In this document: positions 1 through 39,188 of the stretch, one piece after another
Position numbering within the stretch: position 1 is the stretch's first letter
How the letters are laid out: each line of letters starts with the position of its first letter
Source: a virus
Virus record (IMG/VR): IMGVR_UViG_3300028830_000027
Coordinates: 1 to 39,188 of that record
Length of the DNA stretch: 39,188 nucleotides
Strand: one strand, 5' to 3'
Translations under genes and position numbers: made by a program
Notes under the pieces: model-generated
Told to the model about the DNA's origin: nothing
What the model saw: the letters and a program-made list of their open reading frames with translations, nothing else
The model's database searches: none

Positions 1-141
1 GAAGTCATAGAGCCGCTGAGCGCCGACGCAAGATCATTAATCGACTTGAGCGCGGTTCCATCAAAGACCTGTTGTGTACGCTGTTGACCGGGCGACCGCT
101 TCACGCTCATATCCGCACGTAACGGGCGCATCAGCTCGGCC
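1..141. repeat. Terminal exact direct repeat, copy 1 (identical to 39048..39188)
   Basis: Bases 1-141 (gaagtcatagagccgctgag...gcatcagctcggcc) recur base-for-base as the last 141 nt of the window. The repeat lies inside the portal ORF, so it reads as a circularisation/assembly overlap. Confidence 0.95.
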
Positions 142-4017: not shown

Positions 4018-4030
4018 ATTATACCGCGTG
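4018..4030 (-). promoter_or_regulatory. Promoter-like motif cacgcGGTATAAT (proximal, minus arm)
   Basis: The reverse complement of attataccgcgtg gives TATAAT about 7 nt before a purine, followed by the SD and ATG at 3994. One of 8 copies of this motif. Confidence 0.6.
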
Positions 4031-4077: not shown

Positions 4078-4092
4078 ATTATACCGTGCGTG
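4078..4092 (-). promoter_or_regulatory. Promoter-like motif cacgcacGGTATAAT (distal, tandem with 4018)
   Basis: Second copy 60 nt upstream of the first, in the same orientation. Confidence 0.5.
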
Positions 4093-4170
4093 CTAGTAGG
4101 TCTTTCGGCCTATCAGATGGCATAGGCCTAATGTGACGCACACGGAAAAGTGTTGTGGGGGTTGAAGTTA

Positions 4171-4253
4171 AGGGGGGTCCATACCCCTCCCCAGTAATAA
4201 GAAGAGTTAAGATCTTAATTAAGAGTGTGTGGGGAGGGTCAAACCACCCCCCT
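4171..4253. repeat. 83-bp imperfect palindrome centred on TTAAGATCTTAA
   Basis: AGGGGGGT..ACCCCTCCCCA..TTAAGATCTTAATTAA..TGGGGAGGGT..ACCCCCCT. GC-rich arms flank an AT-rich perfect 12-bp palindrome at 4207-4218. It sits between the outward-facing promoters. Confidence 0.85.
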
Positions 4254-4320
4254 AAGTGTAGGCGCCATCAGCCTTTTCCGCGTGTGTCGGGTAGGGGCGA
4301 CAAGGGCCCGGACACACTCC

Positions 4321-4330
4321 ACGGTATAAT
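4321..4330 (+). promoter_or_regulatory. Promoter-like motif ACGGTATAAT (start of plus arm)
   Basis: TATAAT at 4325-4330 with the conserved CACGG prefix. It faces the early genes, and the first SD-led ORF starts about 1 kb downstream at 5369. Confidence 0.55.
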
Positions 4331-4761
4331 CACGGTACCTACCCTCCGTCTGTCTTGAGGGTGGTGTGCGGTGGCGCACAGTGGGGTACGCGGCCCACAT
4401 GCCCAGGAAGGCCCCTAGCTGGCCTCAGGTGCGACGAGGGGCCCTCATGCGGGTCTTCGGTCGGTCTGCGGTGGGATCGCGCTGTGGCGGGCAAGGGCGT
4501 GCGGGGCCTGGGGTGGGCTGCGGTGTACTAGACAGATTCGCTGCGCTCATCTGTCGGTCCGGGGTACAGGTAGGTACAGGCAGGTAAAGGGTCAGCCAAG
4601 GCAGGGGGTAGCAGGGTACGCAGCCCTCGAACCTTTAGGAGGGTCAAAAGTACCTGTCCATGGCCGCACGCCTCCCTCGCCCTGGCACGCGAATTGCATT
4701 CCATGGGTATACCCCTCCCCTCACACTACAGGTAGTGGTCCAACAGGGTCCCCGGCCACTA

Positions 4762-10776: not shown

Positions 10777-11076
10777 GATGACATACTTTAAACGGAGTCC
10801 AGCAGTCTCGATAAAACCGTACGGCGTTATCTTAGTTTTTACACGCGTGCAGTCAGGAGCCGTATGTATCAATATGACGTGGACAGTCAGGCCAGACCTA
10901 CGATGAGTGAGAAATGACCTATACAGCGAACCATACAACAACGCGGCTTACAAGCACATTCGTACGGGTACTTACTCGAAGCTGTTATACTAGCTTCATT
11001 TTCGTGTATAGTGTTCAAACGTTTGACCGTTCCGTTCGTCGCCCAAACTGTTAACATTCACCATAAGGAGGTTCCT

Positions 11077-11274
11077 ATGCGTTGCCCACGTTGCCAAGGT
11101 TTACTAGTCCGTGACTCATTCAACAATGTTCGCTTAGAAGACGCGCAGGTACACGCTGCCGTCCGGTGTGTCAACTGCGGGTTCATCGCTGACCAACTCA
11201 TACTCGCGCGATGGCTGAGTTACCGGCAACAAGCGTCCGCCGAGGTGCCTGTATCCGAGGTGTCCCATGCGTAA
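11077..11274 (+). CDS. Zinc-ribbon protein (65 aa)
   Basis: AAGGAGG SD. CPRC...CVNC spaced about 30 aa apart. Overlaps the next gene by 8 nt. Confidence 0.7.
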   Translation: MRCPRCQGLLVRDSFNNVRLEDAQVHAAVRCVNCGFIADQLILARWLSYRQQASAEVPVSEVSHA

Positions 11275-11587
11275 GGGCGCAGTGAGCCGATCGAATACGC
11301 TTGAAGAATGGTACTTGGACGCGTTGGCGTTCTTGTACCAGCGGTATAGGTACGAAAACGATGTGTTCCTTGACGATGTAGCTGGTCGTTTTGCTGTGCG
11401 TGCGACCTGTGCTTGGAAACGCTTTGACCCAAGTAGAGGCAAAGCCTTCACGTTCCTGTGTTGGATTGCGCGTGCGGCCTACAGTGATGCCGTCACGCAC
11501 AGAAAACGGGGCCGTGACCTCATGGGGGGCCTACACCGGGAGCGTATGACAGAGGAGTGGTTACATCAGTGTGTTGGCAGTGAATGA
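11267..11587 (+). CDS. Sigma-70 region-2-like protein lacking region 4 (106 aa)
   Basis: DDVAGRFAVRATCAWKRFDPSRGKAFTFLCWIARAAYSDAVTHRKRGR fits the ECF/sigma-70 region 2 pattern (FDP..G.F..WL..IA.N...D..R..R). Only about 25 aa follow. Confidence 0.6.
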   Translation: MRKGAVSRSNTLEEWYLDALAFLYQRYRYENDVFLDDVAGRFAVRATCAWKRFDPSRGKAFTFLCWIARAAYSDAVTHRKRGRDLMGGLHRERMTEEWLHQCVGSE

Positions 11588-11603
11588 GCCGGAAAGGAAC
11601 CAT

Positions 11604-11768
11604 ATGACGTATAACCCACTCCGTCTTATCATCGCTGTCACAGGCCGTGGTATTTGGTTCGATCCCCCAAGGTATCGACTAGTTATTCACGCAAACGAGG
11701 TGTTAAGTGAATTTCAAAGGACGCCCGTGCGTCGTCCGTGTGACCAGGCGAACGTAGGTGGCACATGA
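11604..11768 (+). CDS. Mini-protein A (54 aa; MTYNPLRLIIAVTGRGIWF...)
   Basis: AAGGA SD. The stop overlaps the next ATG (ATGA). Confidence 0.5.
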   Translation: MTYNPLRLIIAVTGRGIWFDPPRYRLVIHANEVLSEFQRTPVRRPCDQANVGGT

Positions 11769-11920
11769 CCTACCGCTGTTACCATCGTTGGTTTACCCAT
11801 ACTGCGATGTACGTGTCCATCGCGAAAGAAGACGGTTTATATAGTATTGCCTCGTTTAACGTGCGTTATGGGCATAGTCGCTACGCACTTCGGGTTGAGC
11901 CTAAAAAAAGCGTGAGGTGA
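11765..11920 (+). CDS. Mini-protein B (51 aa; MTYRCYHRWF...SIAKEDGLYSI...)
   Basis: ATGA overlap upstream, AGGTGG 3 nt before the ATG. The stop is 1 nt before the next ATG. Confidence 0.45.
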   Translation: MTYRCYHRWFTHTAMYVSIAKEDGLYSIASFNVRYGHSRYALRVEPKKSVR

Positions 11921-11921
11921 T

Positions 11922-12074
11922 ATGAGGTACGCAAGTGGCAGGAGATTAGCAATTGGTTCGCTTGGGGTATTTAGTTATTCATACAACATTTTGGTGACAG
12001 TTACACAGGTGTCTCATGGAAAAGACGGCTACAAGGCACACAAACGCCCGGCACAGGAGGCCGCCTCGAAATGA
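11922..12074 (+). CDS. Mini-protein C (50 aa; MRYASGRRLAIGSLGVFSY...)
   Basis: GAGGTG just upstream. ATGA overlap with mini-protein D. Confidence 0.45.
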   Translation: MRYASGRRLAIGSLGVFSYSYNILVTVTQVSHGKDGYKAHKRPAQEAASK

Positions 12075-12253
12075 CGTACACCACGGAGTATAAGCGTACA
12101 GGGCCTATTATTATAGGCGTTAGTGGTATCTACGTAAACCAACTATGCGATTTATCTAAAACGATATACATATATGCCTGTGGAATGCGTACCTTAATCA
12201 AAGTGGGTCATCAGTATGTTTGGGGACCGAGGGAGGGGGATGATGTTATATAA
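12071..12253 (+). CDS. Mini-protein D (60 aa; MTYTTEYKRTGPIIIGVSGIYV...)
   Basis: AGGAGG 10 nt upstream. Listed in the ORF track. Confidence 0.55.
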   Translation: MTYTTEYKRTGPIIIGVSGIYVNQLCDLSKTIYIYACGMRTLIKVGHQYVWGPREGDDVI

Positions 12254-12419
12254 GTACAATCGACGGGTTTTCATCGGTGTCGCCGGTCTGATAACGTATC
12301 CACAGTCCTGCGCCATCCCCCATTTCGCGTGTAACCGCGTCTGTTTTCACTCGGTACGGTTGGCGGAGGTGGGGCAAATAGAACGGCCTATGTGCGGGCG
12401 AGACCGGAGTAAACGATGA
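12240..12419 (+). CDS. Mini-protein E (59 aa; MMLYKYNRRVFIGVAGLITY...)
   Basis: AGGGAGGGGG directly upstream. Overlaps D by 14 nt. ATGA overlap with F. Confidence 0.55.
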   Translation: MMLYKYNRRVFIGVAGLITYPQSCAIPHFACNRVCFHSVRLAEVGQIERPMCGRDRSKR

Positions 12420-12577
12420 TATACCACATGAAGTCGCCCATTATGACCAGCACCAAGGGCGTACGTGTACTGACCCGAGTGCGCGGTTGTACAGTCCTTC
12501 TTGAGGCTCCTTGTGTGTTTTGTGCTGGAATGTATGTTGTGGTTCGCCCTGGTACTCGGAAAAAGTTTACACCATGA
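12416..12577 (+). CDS. Mini-protein F (53 aa; MIYHMKSP...GCTVLLEAPCVFCAG...)
   Basis: GGAG 6 nt upstream. ATGA overlaps at both ends. Confidence 0.45.
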   Translation: MIYHMKSPIMTSTKGVRVLTRVRGCTVLLEAPCVFCAGMYVVVRPGTRKKFTP

Positions 12578-12765
12578 AATATATACAAGGTTTTATTCAC
12601 CTGGGAGTCGCGGGGGTACACGTGAGGACTGTACCTGGTATGACTAACATGTCGTTCTTGCATAGCGTTGGCGTGCACTATGTACGGATAGGGCGTAATG
12701 GCGAGGTTTTACGCTATACCGGTCGCGACGACTTCGATGGAGACCAAACCCATGACTTATACTAG
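12574..12765 (+). CDS. Mini-protein G (63 aa; MKYIQGFIHLGVAGVHV...)
   Basis: ATGA overlap with F. This is the C-terminal part of the listed ORF 12511..12765. Confidence 0.5.
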   Translation: MKYIQGFIHLGVAGVHVRTVPGMTNMSFLHSVGVHYVRIGRNGEVLRYTGRDDFDGDQTHDLY

Positions 12766-12895
12766 TAAGACCCTCTATATTGACCAAGGCGGGCTGTTTA
12801 CCGCTCACATAAGCGTCAGGGTGCAGCTTGTCAGAAAACGAGAGAGGTACCTGTATCGACCTGACCCAAAGCCGCTTACGTCGCCGCGCTCGTAA
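12752..12895 (+). CDS. Mini-protein H (47 aa; MTYTSKTLYIDQGGLFT...)
   Basis: GGAG 9 nt upstream. Overlaps G by 14 nt. Confidence 0.45.
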   Translation: MTYTSKTLYIDQGGLFTAHISVRVQLVRKRERYLYRPDPKPLTSPRS

Positions 12896-12972
12896 GGTCT
12901 GGTAAAACCCTCAATCCATTATTCCGTGAACCGCGCCGCCAAACAAGCACGCAGGCAACGAGGTAGTAAAAA

Positions 12973-13149
12973 ATGGTCTATACGAATATGTCCGTGCGAA
13001 TTGACAACGACGGGATCTATTTTAACTCAGAGTTAGACGATGTGGCGTGTAGTATAGCTGTAGATATGTCGATCTTTAACGATAATATTGGATGGGCCTA
13101 TCGCCCCGACGCCCTCTCAACCCTTCGCGAGACTATCAAGATCCGGTAA
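12973..13149 (+). CDS. Mini-protein I (58 aa; MVYTNMSVRIDNDGIYF...)
   Basis: GAGGT 8 nt upstream. Its 3' end overlaps the convergent gene 13117..13848 by 33 nt, which lowers confidence. Confidence 0.35.
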   Translation: MVYTNMSVRIDNDGIYFNSELDDVACSIAVDMSIFNDNIGWAYRPDALSTLRETIKIR

Positions 13150-13848
13150 CACCCACAACCCGTTATTCCGAGCACCTCTCAACATGATTTGATCGGCAAA
13201 CCGAGGGATCGTATACAAGTTGTTATCCATGAGGCACCAGATTGTCTCCGCCTTCCCGGTCAAGTAACTCGAACCTCGCGCTAGGTCAATCACGCGAATC
13301 TCTTCCTTATTGGAGATCTTGACGGTGTGATGTATACCGATGACCGCGCTTGAACCGGTGACACCTAGGACCTTATCAAGTACGGTTTTCATTTCGGTGC
13401 TAGATTCTTCCTTTTGCGAGTGAAGTTCGCGCAACACGTCGATGATGATGAGGTCCGGTTTGAGTGTCGAGATAGCGTCTCTGAAGGATCGTTGCACATT
13501 ATCAGCCATGATATTGCACGGGCGAATCTCATCTTCCGGGTGCACGAAATGGATACGATCTTGCAACACAAACCCATTGTTCTTCATGGAGTGCAAGCGG
13601 AGGTTCCAACTATCATCAGCAGCATCGAGGTTCAAGTACAGCACCGAGGATCCAGACTGACACTGACGACCAAGGAAGCGACCACCAGATGCCACCGCAT
13701 TAGCCAACTGTAAGGCGAAGTAACTTTTGCCCGCTTTGGGTTCACCGATCAGGAGCGCGAAGGAACCAGCAGGGAGAAAACCGTCAATTAACCAGGGCTT
13801 CTGTGGTCGTTCCAAGGCCATGTACTCTGTAGCGGATAGCAAGCGCAT
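13117..13848 (-). CDS. RecA-fold ATPase of the RepA/DnaB-C-terminal (AAA_25-like) type; candidate replicative helicase
   Basis: Walker A GEPKAGKS, Walker B DLIIIDVL, followed by IGIHHTVK. TAGGAGA SD. It is the only minus-strand gene inside the plus arm. Confidence 0.75.
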   Translation of the reverse strand: MRLLSATEYMALERPQKPWLIDGFLPAGSFALLIGEPKAGKSYFALQLANAVASGGRFLGRQCQSGSSVLYLNLDAADDSWNLRLHSMKNNGFVLQDRIHFVHPEDEIRPCNIMADNVQRSFRDAISTLKPDLIIIDVLRELHSQKEESSTEMKTVLDKVLGVTGSSAVIGIHHTVKISNKEEIRVIDLARGSSYLTGKAETIWCLMDNNLYTIPRFADQIMLRGARNNGLWVLPDLDSLAKG

Positions 13849-13874: not shown

Positions 13875-13884
13875 ATTATACCGT
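13875..13884 (-). promoter_or_regulatory. Promoter-like motif ACGGTATAAT for 13117..13848
   Basis: attataccgt on the plus strand, with the SD and ATG 13848 about 25 nt downstream. Confidence 0.6.
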
Positions 13885-13891
13885 AGTAACC

Positions 13892-13901
13892 ACGGTATAA
13901 T
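13892..13901 (+). promoter_or_regulatory. Promoter-like motif ACGGTATAAT for the nuclease/recombination operon
   Basis: Forms a perfect 10+7+10 palindrome with 13875..13884. ATG 13928 lies 27 nt downstream. Confidence 0.6.
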
Positions 13902-15730: not shown

Positions 15731-15740
15731 GCGGTATAAT
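15731..15740 (+). promoter_or_regulatory. Promoter-like motif GCGGTATAAT
   Basis: Preceded by a degenerate half copy (tcacggtaat). About 45 nt upstream of ATG 15785. Confidence 0.55.
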
Positions 15741-15784
15741 GCGGGCATAGTCACTTTTTTAAACCTTTTTGTTTGGAGGATCAT

Positions 15785-16267
15785 ATGTCAAATTCACCTT
15801 GGGCTGCAGAAGAAGTGATGACGGAAGAGGACGTGCGTGAGATCAGCGCAACGGACTTGATTCCGGCTGGCAACTACGAAGGTCAGATCATGCCGTTGAC
15901 AGATGAGAGCTTCCGCGTGGTCCAGACGGACAACGGAACGCACCCACTCGAAGGCAAGACCGTAGTACGCTTGCATGTGGTCCTGTACACGGATGCTGGT
16001 GAGCGACACCTCTTCACCGACGCGTTTCCAGGTACCATCAAGGCTGTCAGCAAGAAAGGCAACGAATACGTCCGGCCAGAATCGCGTATTGCATCGATGC
16101 TCTACAAGGCAACCGGCATGTTCGGTCAGGACTTCTTGGCCGTGTGCGAGTTCGCTGCTGCCAACCGATTGGAGTATCGAATCACCGTGAGCAAGGAAAA
16201 GGTTGACGCGGAAACCGGCAAGGTGTACGAGGCTCAAAACAGGATAGGAGGTATCACCGCTATCTAG
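15785..16267 (+). CDS. Candidate ssDNA-binding protein (DUF669-like), 160 aa
   Basis: GGAGGA SD before ATG 15785. LIPAGNYEGQI...GKTVVRLHVVL resembles the DUF669 proteins that usually follow Sak4-type ATPases. Acidic N-terminus. Confidence 0.5.
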   Translation: MSNSPWAAEEVMTEEDVREISATDLIPAGNYEGQIMPLTDESFRVVQTDNGTHPLEGKTVVRLHVVLYTDAGERHLFTDAFPGTIKAVSKKGNEYVRPESRIASMLYKATGMFGQDFLAVCEFAAANRLEYRITVSKEKVDAETGKVYEAQNRIGGITAI

Positions 16268-17907: not shown

Positions 17908-18829
17908 CGGTGAGGACTTGTGTAAGGAGGTCGTACACCCGCGCCACGGCACCCACGCCCAGGCCACATTGCGCTGGTCTACGACGGACCCCCCAATGGC
18001 GCAGGTTCCCGGTGCTATGGAAGGTATGTTTGGCCCGGCAGAAGGCTACGGGTTCTTCCGTTACGATTGGGCCGCGTTGCATCTCTGGCTGACGGCAGCG
18101 TACGCTGACGATACCAAACTCCTCACCTTGCTCCGTACGGGGGCCGACCTCCACACGGTCAACTGTTGTGACCTGTTCGGCTTACCGTACCCCGCGAACC
18201 TCGTCAACCCCCACACGTCCCCGGAGTGTGCTGAATGGCGGACACTCGTCAAGTGGGAAAAGAAGGATGACCCTCGGAGAACGTTCGCCAAGCGGTTCCT
18301 GTATCGGGTGCTCAAGGGAGGCGACGTGAACAGCCCACCCGCCGGTATCCCGATGACCTTGTTCGGTGGCTCTGCAACCGGTTTCATCAAGGCTAGTCGT
18401 GCCTGGGCTTTGGCAAACGCGAAGGTCATGCAATGGCAGAACAACGTCAAGGCGCAAGTGCTCCGGGATGGTGCCGTCCGCACGGCCTGGGGTAAGATAC
18501 GCCGGTTCAGTAAGCGAGACGCAAAGGCACAACGGGGCGGGATTGACTTCTTGTGCCAAGGGACGGAAGCGGAGATCTTGAACGAGACGGTACTACTCAC
18601 AACCGCTGCGTTTGACCCGGCCCATGTACGCTTTGTGTACAGCCGCCACGACTGTATCATCTGGGAAGTCGCACACTCGGTGTGGTCCCCAGCGTTCCTC
18701 AAACAGATCGCGGACATTGCAACCCGACCTATCACCATCTATCAACACACGTTCAACCTGGAAGCGTCCTTCCATACACGGTATAATGCTGCTACAAAGA
18801 AACAAGATTGGACTCCCACGCAATCCTAG
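17858..18829 (+). CDS. Family-A DNA polymerase, C-terminal ORF: palm and fingers
   Basis: Own AAAGGAGA SD and ATG. LRWSTTDPPMAQVP (like TGRLSS.PNLQNIP), motif A DWAALHLWL, motif B RTFAKRFLYRVLKGG, motif C SRHDCIIWEV. Confidence 0.85.
   Translation: MATIKTLTELKARLDRDGEDLCKEVVHPRHGTHAQATLRWSTTDPPMAQVPGAMEGMFGPAEGYGFFRYDWAALHLWLTAAYADDTKLLTLLRTGADLHTVNCCDLFGLPYPANLVNPHTSPECAEWRTLVKWEKKDDPRRTFAKRFLYRVLKGGDVNSPPAGIPMTLFGGSATGFIKASRAWALANAKVMQWQNNVKAQVLRDGAVRTAWGKIRRFSKRDAKAQRGGIDFLCQGTEAEILNETVLLTTAAFDPAHVRFVYSRHDCIIWEVAHSVWSPAFLKQIADIATRPITIYQHTFNLEASFHTRYNAATKKQDWTPTQS
18777..18787 (+). promoter_or_regulatory. Promoter-like motif CACGGTATAAT inside the 3' end of the polymerase ORF
   Basis: TATAAT at 18782-18787, 55 nt before ATG 18842. 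Confidence 0.5.
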
Positions 18830-18841
18830 AAAGGACCACTC

Positions 18842-19738
18842 ATGATTATCACCCATACAGAAGTGCCCTTGTCGCGTAACCAAAAGTTGATCGTGGTACC
18901 CATCGGCGACATTCACTACAATGCGAGTAGCTGTGACCAAGACCGCTTTGCTGAGACGGTCAAGTGGATCGCGGAGACGAGCAAGCGTCCTGATCGAAAA
19001 GTGGTCACGATCCTCATGGGGGACTACCTTGACACGTTCAGCCGTAGCGAACGTGCGCGTCTGTCGTTCGGCACCGGCCTCCACGAGAGCACCCATGAAT
19101 GGTTTGAAAAGCAGGTCCAAACTAACATTCTCGAACTCTACAACGCTCTCAAACCAATCAAGCATACCATCGGGTGTGTGCTTGCGGGCAACCACACCTA
19201 CAAGTTCCAAGAACGCGCGATGAAGTCGTTGGTTGGTAAGACCTCTGATATGTACCTGGCTGAGCTGTTAGAGGCCCCGTTCATGGGTATGTGTGGGGTG
19301 TATGTGTTGAACCTCGCATCGGGCTCTGCACGGTTCCCCTTCAAGATCTTCATGCACCATGGGTTTGGTTCCAGCAGCAGCAAGCCTTCGTCAGTCAAGC
19401 AACTACTTGACTTGCGGGCGAAGTTCCCTGCGATGAACTTGTATATCATGGGACATAATCACGTCAAGATCTGTACGACGCAGGAAGGAATCGACGTACG
19501 TTTCAATAACAAGAGCGGTGAATGGCGTATGGTATCGCTGGTACAAGGGTTCTTGCGTTCTGCGTCGTTCCTCAAGGGGTATGTCGAAGGCGAAGTGGTA
19601 GACGGCTACAGCGGGTCCTACGCAGAGGAAAAATGTCTCGCGCCCGCTTCACTCGGCGTTGTGTCCGCGAACATCCGCTTGAAGATCAACAAGGACACCA
19701 ACCAGGCTGACGGTTATGTGCTCCACGTTCAAGAGTAA
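18842..19738 (+). CDS. Calcineurin-like metallophosphoesterase (Mre11/SbcD-like)
   Basis: Motifs GDIH, GDYLD, GNH, HHG and GHNH in the canonical order. Confidence 0.8.
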   Translation: MIITHTEVPLSRNQKLIVVPIGDIHYNASSCDQDRFAETVKWIAETSKRPDRKVVTILMGDYLDTFSRSERARLSFGTGLHESTHEWFEKQVQTNILELYNALKPIKHTIGCVLAGNHTYKFQERAMKSLVGKTSDMYLAELLEAPFMGMCGVYVLNLASGSARFPFKIFMHHGFGSSSSKPSSVKQLLDLRAKFPAMNLYIMGHNHVKICTTQEGIDVRFNNKSGEWRMVSLVQGFLRSASFLKGYVEGEVVDGYSGSYAEEKCLAPASLGVVSANIRLKINKDTNQADGYVLHVQE

Positions 19739-36448: not shown

Positions 36449-37375
36449 TGCTTGTTTCGCGATGAACCGGCGAAGGTCTAGCGCACGATTGATGGTTTCC
36501 TCGTGCTTCGGGTGCCGGTCATTAAAGTACGGACCCTTGGCGTCACTCATGATCTTGTCGAGTTCCTGTTGGGCGGTGAGAGCCCCTGTCGAAGTGTCCA
36601 GCTCTTCACCCACGAGGACATTATCCTCAACCAAGGCGCGGCCCATTTTGTACATACCTCGGATGAAGTTCGGGTCGTTAAAGAACCCTGCCTTGTCCAG
36701 TGCGCCCTGGACTTCCGGTGAGAAGTGCATGTCTACTGCTCGTTTTGCCAGCGCAACGAACTTCGGCATAGTAGAACCCCACCCTGGGTTCAACTCGTCA
36801 CCGGTCTTCAAGGCCTCGACACAGCTAGAAGCGGCAGCGTGTCTGTCCGGCTGTGCGGCGACTTCCTGTTGCGCTTGCCACGCGACGATATCACGTACTT
36901 GGTCATTCGTCAGGCCCATCTTATGCGCGGCTTCTTTGAACGCGGTCAACTGCGCTTCGTTCGCTTGCAAGCCAAGCTGCTCGTACGCGGGTAAGTCAAA
37001 TTTGTAGTCAGCGGGGGTTGCCGGGCGACCAAGCTCCTGTTGTAGGCGCTGTATTTTGGCCGCGCGTTCTTCCGGTTTGTCCGTCGGTAAGGGTACCGGC
37101 AACCTGCTCCCGAATGACTTCTGCGCTTGAACGTAGGACTCGACAACGGCTGAGATCGGCTTCCCCTTGAAGGTCTCCAAGGTCTTCTCAGCCTTGAGCC
37201 CGTCTGGTAAGCCGTCGAACCAGTTAATTTCTAGATTACCTGACGACGCAGCAGCACTACCCCCACTAGCTGTTCCCTGTGCGGGGGCTGAAGTAGAGGT
37301 GCTGTCGGTCGCTGTCTGGGCTGGCTGGCCCGCTAGAATACTCGGTGTCGTACCTGCTGGTGTCACTGGATCCAT
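36446..37375 (-). CDS. Scaffolding (capsid assembly) protein
   Basis: CAGGAGGA SD. Low-complexity N-terminus, then ..NWFDGLPDGLKAEKTLETFKGKP..SYVQAQKSFG and ELGRPATPADYKF, which are typical of podoviral scaffolds. Lies between the portal and capsid genes. Confidence 0.75.
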   Translation of the reverse strand: MDPVTPAGTTPSILAGQPAQTATDSTSTSAPAQGTASGGSAAASSGNLEINWFDGLPDGLKAEKTLETFKGKPISAVVESYVQAQKSFGSRLPVPLPTDKPEERAAKIQRLQQELGRPATPADYKFDLPAYEQLGLQANEAQLTAFKEAAHKMGLTNDQVRDIVAWQAQQEVAAQPDRHAAASSCVEALKTGDELNPGWGSTMPKFVALAKRAVDMHFSPEVQGALDKAGFFNDPNFIRGMYKMGRALVEDNVLVGEELDTSTGALTAQQELDKIMSDAKGPYFNDRHPKHEETINRALDLRRFIAKQA

Positions 37376-37610
37376 TGCGATTGTCCTCCTGGTTAAGGGT
37401 CGTGGTTCTACGGATCATATCGAAAATGCTTGTCACCACATGACGCATACCTTCGTTAAAGGCGGTCGCGTGGGGGTCGCCGGGTGTAAAGGTTGTCTTG
37501 TACACGAAGCAGCTACGCGCGAGGTCTTCTAGTACCGTTTGCCCTGCCGGGGTACTAAACGCCTCGTTGTAGCTGTTCACGATGGCTTGGAACTTTTCGT
37601 CTTCATCCAT
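37266..37610 (-). CDS. Bbp19-like small conserved protein (114 aa as listed)
   Basis: ..AGQTVLEDLARSCFVYKTTFTPGDPHATAFNEGMRHVVTSIFDMI fits the small protein found between portal and scaffold in BPP-1-like podoviruses. Its 3' 110 nt overlap the scaffold gene out of frame. Confidence 0.65.
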   Translation of the reverse strand: MDEDEKFQAIVNSYNEAFSTPAGQTVLEDLARSCFVYKTTFTPGDPHATAFNEGMRHVVTSIFDMIRRTTTLNQEDNRNGSSDTSRYDTEYSSGPASPDSDRQHLYFSPRTGNS

Positions 37611-37619
37611 AGTGACTAC

Positions 37620-37634
37620 ATTATACCGCGTGTG
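37620..37634 (-). promoter_or_regulatory. Promoter-like motif cacacgcGGTATAAT, 9 nt upstream of ATG 37610
   Basis: attataccgcgtgtg on the plus strand. There is no SD between the motif and the ATG, so the transcript would be leaderless or nearly so. Confidence 0.5.
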
Positions 37635-37636
37635 CC

Positions 37637-39188
37637 CTAGGCCCCACCTCCCGCCGCTTGTGGTCCTATCTCCGAGGCGGTCTTCATCGCCTTGAAGGAC
37701 GACTCAGCGGTGGACGCATTCGAGGACGCTAAGGCAGCTTCCTCGGCCTGTGCTTGCCGGGCGGCGGCTTCCTCACGTTTAGCGTCACGGGCCTCGATTG
37801 GCACCAACCAGCGGGAAGGAACTCCTGTGTTGACAGACGCCTCTCGGATGATCGCGTCACCGTCATAGTTATCCATCAGACCTGGATTACTCGCTACAAG
37901 AGTCTGTGTCGCGGCAAGGACCTGCTGGAACGCGCCGACTTCGTTTGCCCTCTGCGATCGGGTTAGTGGAGACGTGTACACCACCGCGATGTCCGTGAAG
38001 CCCTGCGAGACGGCTTCGATCACGGGTTGCGGAGGTGGAGGAAGAACACCCGCCGTCATCAGCGCATCAAAGGCGTAGTCAATGAGAGGGTTGAACAACT
38101 CAACCTTGAGACGCGTGGTGGAGGGTGCTAGCATACGTTGCATCTGCTCGATATGCGAGGATACCTCGAAGGCCGTCATAAAGCTTTTGTTCGGGATCAA
38201 GAGTTGGTCACTGAAGAAGTAGTTCCTGATGGCTTGTCGGATCTGTTCTTCTTGAAAGTTCGCCACGTCAAACTTTGCGCCGGACTCAAAGGGAGCGACC
38301 GCATCACGGCTACGAACAACCGTACGCGTGCCTGACATCAGACGCAACTTCCCGATCACGCCGTCGTCAATTGTAAGCACAGGTGGATCAATCGCCTTTG
38401 CCCATTGGCGTAAACGCAACTCAACAGCGCGGTTCAAGGTCGCCACGTCCGGGTAGGCAATGTGACCTCTGCCGGTCCCATACACTTCCTCACTGGCTTT
38501 GTCCCAGCGCGGGGCGAGCACACGTAACTGCTTCAAAAAGGACTCCCGCAAGAGCGCCTTTGATTCCTTCTCAATGAACAAGAGGCGGTACTTACGACGC
38601 GGGGTTGCCTCGTTCGGGGGAAGGGGTTCAACAAACCGTACGATGCTCAACGGTTGGTCCGGGTTCTTTGCGGCGACCTTTCTCGTCTGTTCACTGACGG
38701 CAGAGCCAAACTGTTCAATAGCCGACGCGTGAGACATCGTGATTTCGCTGCCGACCACATTCGGGCGACCTTCGTGGTCCTCGGCAAGGACGTAACGGCC
38801 CGGTGCGATCGTCTTGAACACGAACCCGTTGAACTTCGTGGAGCGAATCGGCCTTTCGTCCATCCACATACACGCGGTTCCGAACACAATGAGGTCCTGG
38901 TACAACTCGTGAATCTCAGAACCGAAATTGCTCTGTTGGAAGGCCAGGTAGATCCGGCGTGAGCAATCCTCAAGCCACGTACGAACTTCCCATATCTCAT
39001 TCAAGGGTTCAAAGCCCATTTGTAAATTGAACCACTGATAGTCCACGGAAGTCATAGAGCCGCTGAGCGCCGACGCAAGATCATTAATCGACTTGAGCGC
39101 GGTTCCATCAAAGACCTGTTGTGTACGCTGTTGACCGGGCGACCGCTTCACGCTCATATCCGCACGTAACGGGCGCATCAGCTCGGCC
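37637..39188 (-). CDS. Portal (head-to-tail connector) protein, main body; 5' end continues at 142..236 by circular permutation. Full length about 548 aa.
   Basis: Long ORF directly upstream of the Bbp19-like, scaffold and capsid genes, with the packaging genes upstream. Size and N-terminal pattern fit podoviral connector proteins. Confidence 0.8.
   Translation of the reverse strand, partial: AELMRPLRADMSVKRSPGQQRTQQVFDGTALKSINDLASALSGSMTSVDYQWFNLQMGFEPLNEIWEVRTWLEDCSRRIYLAFQQSNFGSEIHELYQDLIVFGTACMWMDERPIRSTKFNGFVFKTIAPGRYVLAEDHEGRPNVVGSEITMSHASAIEQFGSAVSEQTRKVAAKNPDQPLSIVRFVEPLPPNEATPRRKYRLLFIEKESKALLRESFLKQLRVLAPRWDKASEEVYGTGRGHIAYPDVATLNRAVELRLRQWAKAIDPPVLTIDDGVIGKLRLMSGTRTVVRSRDAVAPFESGAKFDVANFQEEQIRQAIRNYFFSDQLLIPNKSFMTAFEVSSHIEQMQRMLAPSTTRLKVELFNPLIDYAFDALMTAGVLPPPPQPVIEAVSQGFTDIAVVYTSPLTRSQRANEVGAFQQVLAATQTLVASNPGLMDNYDGDAIIREASVNTGVPSRWLVPIEARDAKREEAAARQAQAEEAALASSNASTAESSFKAMKTASEIGPQAAGGGA
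39048..39188. repeat. Terminal exact direct repeat, copy 2 (identical to 1..141)
   Basis: Same 141 nt as the window start. Confidence 0.95.

What the first reader, a model, noticed from the sequence alone, without database searches (positions are those of the whole stretch)
11077..11587. Zinc-ribbon protein translationally coupled to a sigma region-2-only protein: a possible minimal phage sigma (gp55-like logic)
The 106-aa ORF carries a convincing sigma-70/ECF region 2 pattern (FDPSRGKAFTFLCWIARAAYSDAVTHRKR) but stops about 25 aa later. It therefore lacks region 4, the -35-binding domain. It overlaps by 8 nt a 65-aa CxxC...CxxC zinc ribbon that could be a partner, an anti-sigma or a co-activator. 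Established precedent: T4 gp55 is a truncated, region-2-related sigma that reads a -10-only late promoter. The -10-only CGGTATAAT family in this genome is a natural candidate target. Against this, the motif precedes both early-arm and late-arm genes, so host sigma-70 use is equally possible.
Basis: partly seen in the sequence, partly recalled or inferred. Interest (0 to 1): 0.65.

Follow-up and report, generated by a model that had tools for sequence, protein, structure and literature searches.

The report
Phage mini-sigma paired with zinc ribbon
An uncultured phage with no RNA polymerase of its own encodes a 106-residue protein that is only the promoter-melting domain of a bacterial sigma factor, coupled to a small zinc-ribbon protein; the pair may be an unusually small two-piece device for taking over the host polymerase, but no function has been shown.

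Summary
ORF 11267-11587 (106 aa) matches Pfam Sigma70_r2 above the curated cut-off (28.3 bits, E 1.5e-6). Its AlphaFold model is a three-helix domain whose best PDB matches are E. coli sigmaE region 2. It ends 25 residues later, and no sigma region 4 was found in 60 other window ORFs. ORF 11077-11274 (65 aa, CxxC...CxxC) overlaps it by a conserved 8-nt ATGCGTAA. Both genes are under strong purifying selection (dN/dS about 0.05-0.065).

An exhaustive search found about 11 clusters of 105-161 aa proteins, all on metagenomic contigs and syntenic where long enough. One member is a natural zinc-ribbon/sigma-2 fusion. Two further lineages keep the ribbon nearby, so the two are probably partners.

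The protein is not a T4 gp55 homologue (hhalign probability 0.1%).

The genome has one enriched promoter-like motif, GGTATAAT with no -35 element, present on both arms and conserved in relatives. This suits a sigma lacking region 4, but the early-arm copy must first be read by host holoenzyme.

The best reading, at about 0.4 confidence, is a two-piece, -35-independent initiation factor. A decoy, an anti-sigma pair or an elongation or priming role are not excluded. It is a new variant of a known kind.

The parts
11077..11274 (+). Zinc-ribbon gene (65 aa). CxxC knuckles at Cys3/Cys6 (nt 11083-11094) and Cys31/Cys34 (nt 11167-11178). C-terminal helix IADQLILARWLSYRQQ at nt 11185-11232.
   Evidence: The four Cys are invariant in homologues. 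dN/dS is 0.065. The AF2 model of the fused homologue shows two beta-hairpins. Only weak Pfam zinc-ribbon hits were found.
11065..11071 (+). Shine-Dalgarno sequence AAGGAGG, five nt upstream of the zinc-ribbon ATG.
   Evidence: Read directly from the sequence.
11267..11274 (+). The 8-nt overlap ATGCGTAA, containing the sigma-2 start and the zinc-ribbon stop. This indicates translational coupling.
   Evidence: Conserved in 9 of 9 distinct relatives.
11267..11587 (+). Sigma-2-only gene (106 aa, 12.5 kDa, pI 9.2).
   Evidence: dN/dS is 0.049.
11321..11509 (+). Match to Sigma70_r2 (residues 19-81; regions 2.1-2.4). It includes the conserved loop FDPSRGKAF (nt 11423-11449) and the aromatic residue F63, which aligns with the Trp of R. 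sphaeroides RpoE and M. tuberculosis SigC.
11510..11584 (+). A 25-residue tail with low model confidence. It starts with the family-conserved [KR]-[DC]-[LM]-M motif and is too short to be region 4.
4018..4026 (-). CGGTATAAT, a -10-only promoter-like site at the head of the leftward (virion/packaging) arm. Candidate target; not shown to depend on sigma-2.
4078..4086 (-). CGGTATAAT, in tandem with the 4018 site. Candidate target.
4322..4330 (+). CGGTATAAT at the head of the rightward (early) arm that contains the zinc-ribbon and sigma-2 genes. Host RNAP must read it first.
13875..13901 (.). Back-to-back CGGTATAAT sites (13875-13883 on the - strand, 13893-13901 on the + strand) between the AAA_25 helicase and PD-(D/E)XK genes. 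They form a 9-bp inverted repeat. The arrangement is kept in L004, L005 and L006.
15732..15740 (+). CGGTATAAT upstream of gene 15773-16267.
18779..18787 (+). CGGTATAAT upstream of the Metallophos gene at 18842.
37620..37628 (-). CGGTATAAT nine nt upstream of the ATG at 37610, which implies a near-leaderless mRNA. It heads the scaffold/capsid genes.

Best explanation
The 106-aa protein is a free-standing sigma-2 domain of ECF type, covering regions 2.1-2.4 plus a short linker stub. The proposed mechanism has three steps.

1. It is made from the early arm together with its zinc-ribbon partner, at or above equal amounts because of translational coupling.
2. The pair docks on host core RNAP.
3. 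It acts as a -35-independent initiation factor at the phage's -10-only GGTATAAT promoters. Sigma-2 would supply contact with the beta-prime clamp helices and capture of the non-template -10 strand. The ribbon would supply an extra contact with RNAP or DNA that substitutes for the missing regions 3 and 4.

Every recognisable phage promoter is of the same -10-only type, including the one that drives the pair. The model is therefore a positive-feedback takeover: host holoenzyme fires the first round, then RNAP carrying sigma-2 and the ribbon favours phage promoters over host promoters that need a -35 element. It is not a switch between promoter classes.

Shown here: domain identity, absence of region 4, reality and coupling of both genes, the fusion in a relative, the -10-only motif, and the lack of a phage RNAP. 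Inferred: binding to core RNAP, DNA recognition, the role of the ribbon and the feedback logic.
For: The sigma-2 domain is identified by Pfam above the gathering cut-off and by the AF2 model plus Foldseek matches to sigmaE region 2.

The family consistently lacks region 4. All members are 105-161 aa with no region 4. No Sigma70_r4 hit was found in 60 other window ORFs or in the precomputed Pfam annotation of related contigs.

The best-conserved family positions include the loop between helices 2 and 3, FDP.RG.AF. They also include an aromatic residue (F/Y/W) that aligns with the Trp of R. sphaeroides RpoE and M. tuberculosis SigC. This suggests the DNA-melting surface is retained.

The ribbon looks like a partner. 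The 8-nt overlap is conserved in 9 of 9 relatives. P0009 is a ribbon/sigma-2 fusion with a linker of about 10 residues, found in a syntenic contig. The ribbon lies within about 350-550 nt upstream of sigma-2 in L004 and L022. The RWLSY(R/K)(Q/E)Q helix occurs only in ribbons encoded next to a separate sigma-2 gene; the fusion and the distant ribbons without sigma-2 lack it.

The promoter context fits. GGTATAAT is the only strongly enriched motif. There are 8 exact copies, each at or just upstream of a gene start and pointing at the gene. No -35 information is present. The motif is conserved at equivalent places in relatives whose sigma-2 is 40-59% identical. No phage RNAP gene was found.

Precedent exists for a split sigma: T4 gp55 plus gp33 (PMC2988020) and SigO-RsoA (PMC7826278).
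Against: The same motif heads the early arm (4322+), 6.7 kb upstream of the sigma-2 gene, so host holoenzyme must recognise it. G at -14 with a perfect TATAAT is close to an extended -10 promoter. No second, sigma-2-specific promoter class was found.

In the alignment to M. tuberculosis SigC, the Q-E pair of SigC region 2.2 aligns with G-R here, and the family shows (G/S/A)-R at this position. From my own knowledge this pair is important for core binding in sigma-70.

The ribbon is absent from several family loci (L005, L006, L023, L025, L007/8), so it is not an obligate partner across the family. The fusion rests on a single contig. The pTM of the fusion model is only 0.57, so it gives no confident view of how the domains pack. 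Nothing here tests binding.
Confidence: 0.4

Rival explanations
1. Sigma decoy or host shut-off factor. The free sigma-2 domain occupies the beta-prime clamp helices, or another surface that binds sigma-2, and blocks host sigma factors without supporting initiation itself. The ribbon stabilises or targets it.
For: The domain is only the core-docking and melting module. It is expressed from the early arm among small genes of host-takeover type. Many phage proteins inhibit RNAP by displacing sigma (bioRxiv 10.64898/2025.12.17.695035).
Against: The phage has no RNAP of its own, so a general competitor of sigma would also shut off phage promoters. The strongest family conservation lies in the -10-binding loop and wedge aromatic, not in the canonical core-binding Q-E positions.
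Confidence: 0.2
2. A sigma/anti-sigma pair. The zinc ribbon is a small zinc-dependent anti-sigma, working like CsfB/Gin, that holds sigma-2 inactive until a cue such as redox state, zinc or proteolysis releases it.
For: Small zinc-binding proteins with two CxxC motifs can inhibit sigma factors by binding region 2 (CsfB; PMC5890618). Co-transcription and coupling are typical of sigma/anti-sigma pairs. The ribbon is not universal in the family.
Against: The gene order is reversed relative to the usual sigma-then-anti-sigma arrangement. A natural covalent fusion through a short Gly linker (P0009) is hard to reconcile with a releasable inhibitor. No Pfam hit to Gin or to the ZAS zf-HC2 domain was listed at E up to 10.
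Confidence: 0.15
3. The sigma-2 fold is used outside initiation. It could be a factor that recognises -10-like non-template or single-stranded DNA and loads onto elongating RNAP. That would affect sigma-type pausing or antitermination over the roughly 22-kb late operon, using the clamp-helix site also used by NusG and RfaH. Or it could direct RNAP to prime DNA replication at the inverted GGTATAAT pair next to the helicase gene.
For: The gene sits directly upstream of the replication module in all long relatives. No primase was recognised. The 13875/13893 sites form a 9-bp inverted repeat that is kept in relatives. The late arm appears to be served by only three promoters.
Against: This is purely inferential, and I know of no precedent for a free sigma-2 domain in these roles. 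The inverted repeat is explained more simply as two divergent promoters.
Confidence: 0.15
4. A decaying remnant of an acquired ECF sigma gene with no function of its own.
For: The architecture is truncated. The family is very rare: 13 hits among 1.84 billion representative proteins.
Against: dN/dS is 0.049. The length class is the same (105-161 aa) across lineages down to about 30% identity. The family has its own conserved N-terminal motif, RPNTxEEWYxD. Coupling and a fusion to the ribbon are conserved.
Confidence: 0.03

Closest known systems
T4 gp55 (late sigma) with gp33, the 'split sigma' (PMC2988020)
   Same: A phage-encoded protein related to sigma region 2 only, with no region 4. It works with a second small phage protein. 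Its target promoters are -10-only. The host RNAP is reused.
   Different: No detectable homology: hhalign probability 0.1%, no tblastn hit in 50,697 phage genomes and no PHROG. The window protein is much smaller (106 aa against 185) and closer to canonical region 2 (28.3 bits against 13.1 bits on Sigma70_r2). The partner is a zinc ribbon, not a gp33-like protein. No phage sliding clamp was found. The promoter motif is not restricted to late genes.
ECF (group 4) sigma factors, sigma-2 domain (E. coli sigmaE, M. tuberculosis SigC, R. sphaeroides RpoE)
   Same: These are the best sequence and structure matches. The fold is the same three-helix sigma-2 domain with the FDP loop and aromatic wedge position.
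   Different: There is no sigma-4 domain. No auto-regulated promoter with -35 and -10 elements lies upstream of the gene. The Q-E pair of SigC region 2.2 aligns with G-R. The family has its own N-terminal motif, RPNTxEEWY. No cellular sigma appeared among the phmmer hits at E up to 1e-3.
B. subtilis SigO-RsoA two-subunit sigma (MacLellan et al. 2009, as cited in PMC7826278)
   Same: Sigma function is divided between two small co-expressed polypeptides, one of which carries region-2-like sequence.
   Different: In SigO-RsoA one of the two subunits supplies sigma-4. Here the partner is a zinc ribbon with no similarity to region 4. The system is cellular, not phage. Homology to RsoA was not tested because no sequence was at hand.
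CsfB/Gin, a small Zn-binding anti-sigma (PMC5890618)
   Same: A small protein with two CxxC motifs that is functionally tied to a sigma domain.
   Different: CsfB is a treble-clef dimer and an inhibitor. Here the model is a beta-hairpin ribbon, there is no Pfam Gin hit, the gene lies upstream of its sigma, and the two are fused in one lineage.

Membership tests
Sigma-70 family / ECF sigma factor | Sigma-2 domain (regions 2.1-2.4) | tested here: met
   Pfam Sigma70_r2 at 28.3 bits, above the cut-off of 24, covering profile positions 8-70 of 71. AF2 model plus Foldseek top hits to sigmaE region 2.
Sigma-70 family / ECF sigma factor | Sigma-4 domain (regions 4.1-4.2; binds the -35 element and the beta flap) | tested here: not met
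   The protein ends 25 residues after region 2. All family members are 105-161 aa. No Sigma70_r4 hit in 60 other window ORFs or in the annotated genes of related contigs.
Sigma-70 family / ECF sigma factor | Binds core RNAP and confers promoter-specific initiation | not testable with these tools
   This needs biochemistry or a multimer co-fold. The Q-E pair of SigC region 2.2 aligns with G-R here, which leaves core binding uncertain.
Sigma-70 family / ECF sigma factor | A cognate promoter upstream of its own operon (auto-regulation, typical of ECFs) | tested here: not met
   No GGTATAAT or other enriched motif lies in 10777-11076. The nearest upstream site on the + strand is 4322.
T4 gp55-type late sigma | Sequence membership in the gp55 family | tested here: not met
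   hhalign of A1 against T4 gp55 gives probability 0.1%. No tblastn hit in the phage collection. No PHROG hit.
T4 gp55-type late sigma | Region-2-only architecture | tested here: met
T4 gp55-type late sigma | A distinct -10-only promoter class confined to late genes | tested here: inconclusive
   A -10-only class exists, but it heads both the early and late arms, and no second class was found.
T4 gp55-type late sigma | A gp33-like co-activator and a phage sliding clamp (gp45) as activator | tested here: not met
   No clamp or gp33-like family appears among the Pfam and PHROG results for window ORFs. The partner here is a zinc ribbon. Very divergent proteins could have been missed.
Two-subunit sigma (SigO-RsoA) | The partner subunit carries sigma-4 | tested here: not met
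   The zinc ribbon has no Sigma70_r4 hit at E up to 10.
Two-subunit sigma (SigO-RsoA) | Homology to RsoA or SigO | not tested
Zn-dependent anti-sigma (ZAS zf-HC2; CsfB/Gin) | An HxxxCxxC anti-sigma domain or a Gin treble-clef signature | tested here: not met
   The Pfam scan at E up to 10 lists only generic zinc-ribbon families. The model shows a two-hairpin ribbon.
Zn-dependent anti-sigma (ZAS zf-HC2; CsfB/Gin) | Binds and inhibits its cognate sigma | not testable with these tools
   This needs binding and transcription assays. The natural fusion argues against a releasable inhibitor.

The most novel reading that the evidence does not exclude
The zinc ribbon and the 12.5-kDa sigma-2 module together form the smallest known sigma: a two-piece factor, or a one-piece factor in the fused lineage. 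It would suffice to make host core RNAP melt and initiate at -10-only GGTATAAT promoters. The ribbon would replace the RNAP or DNA contacts normally made by regions 3 and 4. This would be an independent, ECF-derived reinvention of the T4 gp55/gp33 solution.
Probability: 0.25. Interest if true: 0.8.

Novelty: new variant of a known kind. Interest (0 to 1): 0.58.

Why it matters
If sigma-2 and the ribbon work as proposed, they would define the minimal protein needed for promoter-specific initiation by bacterial RNAP: about 75 structured residues plus a zinc ribbon. This would also be a second, evolutionarily independent case of a phage 'split sigma'. It would explain how a podovirus clade without its own RNAP runs a genome whose promoters all lack a -35 element. 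A factor this small would also be a compact orthogonal transcription part. If it is instead a decoy, it would be a natural peptide-sized blocker of the docking site for sigma on core RNAP. Either outcome can be tested directly with two small proteins and one 9-bp motif.

Tried and rejected
- PHROGs gave no family for sigma-2 and only noise for the ribbon.
- NCBIfam gave only sub-threshold sigma hits.
- The INPHARED phage collection gave no nucleotide or tblastn match for the region, sigma-2 or the ribbon.
- IMG/VR held no relatives of sigma-2 or of the neighbouring PD-(D/E)XK gene, even with alignments as queries.
- GTDB genomes held no sigma-2 relatives, so no prophage or host copy was found.
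- A profile re-search of the 5.8-billion-protein set added no new members.
- A search for a second, sigma-2-specific promoter class by k-mer enrichment (8- to 12-mers) found only GGTATAAT.
- The sigma-70 consensus scan found nothing convincing upstream of the pair.
- A frameshifted or downstream region 4 was rejected. Synteny with relatives at about 90% identity breaks right after the stop, the downstream ORF has no Pfam or PHROG hit, and the whole family is short.
- Rfam and tRNA scans of the window found nothing.
- Foldseek on the fusion model gave only generic zinc-ribbon or MqsA-like matches.
- Homology between the ribbon and the other small Cys protein found upstream of sigma-2 in L023 and L007/8 was not supported (hhalign probability 0.3%).
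- Host identification through the LuxI gene of relative L004 was ambiguous: Pseudomonadota MAGs at about 41% identity, and a Nitrospira MAG at 59% over a partial match.
- The 141-nt terminal repeat was considered as a true terminal repeat. It more likely reflects an assembly overlap of a circular or permuted genome, because the portal gene start lies inside it and 141 is a common maximum k-mer (the k-mer point is my own knowledge).

Full report
**What is there.** The window is a roughly 39.05-kb podovirus-like genome. Its two ends repeat 141 nt, which most likely reflects an assembly overlap because the portal gene start lies inside the repeat. The - strand carries a T7-type virion module: portal, protease/scaffold, major capsid protein, tail tube, internal virion proteins and tail fibre. 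The large terminase lies at 1183-2574. The + strand carries an early and replication arm: an AAA_5 ATPase, a DUF2201 protein, PD-(D/E)XK, AAA_24, a split family-A DNA polymerase and Metallophos. An AAA_25 helicase lies on the - strand at 13117-13848. No RNA polymerase, primase or sliding clamp was recognised. The portal is only about 35% identical to any cultured phage. The region of interest has no nucleotide or protein match in 50,697 phage genomes.

ORF 11077-11274 encodes 65 aa with CxxC at residues 3-6 and 31-34 and has a strong Shine-Dalgarno sequence. ORF 11267-11587 encodes 106 aa. They overlap by ATGCGTAA. The 106-aa protein matches Pfam Sigma70_r2 above the gathering score (28.3 bits, E 1.5e-6) over almost the whole model. 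With a 12-sequence alignment, AlphaFold gives three helices (12-26, 32-48, 60-81) at pLDDT above 90 and a poorly defined 25-residue tail. Foldseek ranks E. coli sigmaE region 2 first, followed by SigH, SigL and SigK. Alignments to R. sphaeroides RpoE and M. tuberculosis SigC place FDPSR on the FDP loop and F63 on the conserved Trp. Nine distinct relatives at about 90% nt identity give dN/dS of 0.065 for the ribbon and 0.049 for sigma-2, against about 3 in the wrong frames. All nine keep the overlap. Both ORFs are therefore real, selected genes.

**It is truly region-2-only.** An exhaustive phmmer search of 1.84 billion representative proteins found 13 hits. Apart from one low-complexity false positive and one chimeric fragment, they are 105-161 aa proteins with the same layout. 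That layout is a family-specific N-terminal motif RPNTxEEWYxD, the sigma-2 helices, the loop FDP.RG.AF, an aromatic-L-C stretch, a [KR]-[DC]-[LM]-M motif and a variable tail. None has region 4. No other ORF in the window hits Sigma70_r4 among the 60 scanned, and no annotated gene in the related contigs does. Synteny with close relatives breaks immediately after the stop codon, which rules out a frameshifted continuation. Every contig long enough to judge (L001-L004, L006) shows the same early/replication synteny; the others are 0.7-7 kb contigs with few or no annotated neighbours.

**The zinc ribbon is probably a partner.**
- P0009 (161 aa, contig L003, same synteny) is a single ORF in which a CPKC...CVNC ribbon is joined through about 10 residues (HEGGGG) to the sigma-2 domain.
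- In L004 (sigma-2 59% identical) and L022 (58%) the ribbon gene lies about 350-550 nt upstream of sigma-2, with one small ORF between.
- Ribbons encoded next to a separate sigma-2 gene share a C-terminal helix, (A/D/E)RW(L/Q)(S/G)Y(R/K)(Q/E)Q. The fusion lacks this helix, and so do the more distant ribbons that have no sigma-2 nearby. This is what one would expect if the helix docks onto sigma-2.

The partnership is not universal. L023/L024 and L007/L008 instead carry another small Cys-containing protein upstream. The two are related to each other but not demonstrably to the ribbon. L005 and L025 share a helical ORF of 85-90 aa, and L006 has a different 106-aa ORF. The AF2 model of the fusion shows a two-hairpin ribbon followed by sigma-2, but pTM is only 0.57, so the packing of the domains is not resolved. 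Its Foldseek matches are generic zinc ribbons.

**Promoter context.** CGGTATAAT occurs eight times exactly: 4018-, 4078-, 4322+, 13875-, 13893+, 15732+, 18779+ and 37620-. Each copy sits at or just upstream of a gene start and points towards the gene. It is the only strongly enriched 8- to 12-mer. A profile of 14 instances from the window and relatives has no information at -35. (C/G)GGTATAAT is kept at the equivalent divergent position between the helicase and nuclease genes in L004, L005 and L006. All recognisable phage promoters therefore lack a -35 element, which fits a factor without region 4. However, the same motif heads the early arm that contains the sigma-2 gene. G at -14 followed by a perfect TATAAT is also close to an extended -10 promoter that a host primary sigma could read. 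No separate late class exists.

**How it most likely works (confidence about 0.4).** The free sigma-2 domain and its ribbon are made early. They bind host core RNAP and act as a -35-independent initiation factor at GGTATAAT promoters. This gives a feed-forward takeover rather than a switch of promoter class. Domain identity, loss of region 4, coupling, the fusion, the motif and the dependence on host RNAP are shown. Core binding, recognition of the -10 element and the role of the ribbon are inferred. One caution is that the Q-E pair of SigC region 2.2 aligns with G-R here. From my own knowledge that pair matters for core binding in sigma-70.

Rivals: a sigma decoy that shuts off the host (0.2); a CsfB-like pair of zinc anti-sigma and sigma (0.15, PMC5890618); a role in elongation or priming through binding of -10-like single-stranded DNA (0.15); a dead remnant (0.03, contradicted by the selection data).

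**Comparison with known systems.** The logic resembles T4 gp55 plus gp33, described as a split sigma in which gp55 docks on the beta-prime coiled-coil and gp33 on the beta flap (PMC2988020). It also resembles SigO-RsoA (PMC7826278). Membership in the gp55 family fails: hhalign probability is 0.1%, and there is no tblastn or PHROG hit. The protein is in fact closer to canonical region 2 than gp55 is, at 28.3 against 13.1 bits. It also fails the definition of a full ECF sigma because it has no sigma-4. Phage proteins annotated as carrying only sigma-2 have been noted in passing in the literature (PMC7826278), but I found no description of this family or of a zinc-ribbon partner.

**Verdict.** The gp55-like interpretation is plausible and partly supported but unproven. 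The finding is a new variant of a known kind: a phage region-2-only or split sigma. The family is rare and confined to an uncultured podovirus group. Interest is 0.58.

Noticed in passing
window 10778-13150 (+): A run of about 10 tiny ORFs (42-65 aa), each with its own Shine-Dalgarno sequence. Nearly all begin M-(T/I/V/R)-Y; ATGACSTA occurs four times in this stretch. They are not detectably homologous to one another. The ORF just after sigma-2 in relative L004 also starts MIY. This stretch is less conserved (about 80% nt) than the rest of the genome (about 90%).
   Followed up: partly
window 4100-4760: A 650-nt non-coding, G-rich stretch between the divergent promoters. It has repeated GGGGTAC and GGTACAG motifs and two GGGG...CCCC inverted blocks (about 4174-4195 and 4231-4255). 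It could be an origin, a packaging site or a long structured leader.
   Followed up: no
window 13875-13901: The two back-to-back promoters form a perfect 9-bp inverted repeat, ATTATACCG-N9-CGGTATAAT, between the helicase and PD-(D/E)XK genes. In L006 the arms extend to 12 bp. This may be an operator or origin as well as a promoter pair.
   Followed up: partly
window 1-141 and 39048-39188: An exact 141-nt terminal repeat that contains the first 131 nt of the portal gene. It most likely reflects an assembly overlap of a circular or permuted genome, not a true terminal repeat.
   Followed up: partly
window 37611-37628 (-): The CGGTATAAT site here ends only nine nt before the ATG of ORF 37266-37610, which implies a leaderless or near-leaderless mRNA for the gene that follows the portal.
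   Followed up: no
whole window: No primase, RNA polymerase or sliding clamp gene was recognised, although the replication module is otherwise complete (helicase, nuclease, AAA_24, split PolA).
   Followed up: partly
L010 6001-7095 and L011 1530-2624: In an unrelated phage contig, a distant homologue of the zinc ribbon (P0025) is followed by a Prok-JAB gene and then a 116-aa ORF that matches the RNA polymerase alpha C-terminal domain above the Pfam cut-off (25.7 bits).
   Followed up: partly
L004 9529-10137: A relative of this phage carries a LuxI-type autoinducer synthase. The nearest genomic matches are Pseudomonadota MAGs (about 41% identity) and a Nitrospira MAG (59% over a partial match). 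This is a weak clue to the host.
   Followed up: partly
window 10978-11007 (+): A weak terminator-like hairpin (7-bp stem, then ATTTTCGTGT) lies about 70 nt upstream of the zinc-ribbon start, inside the block conserved with relatives.
   Followed up: no
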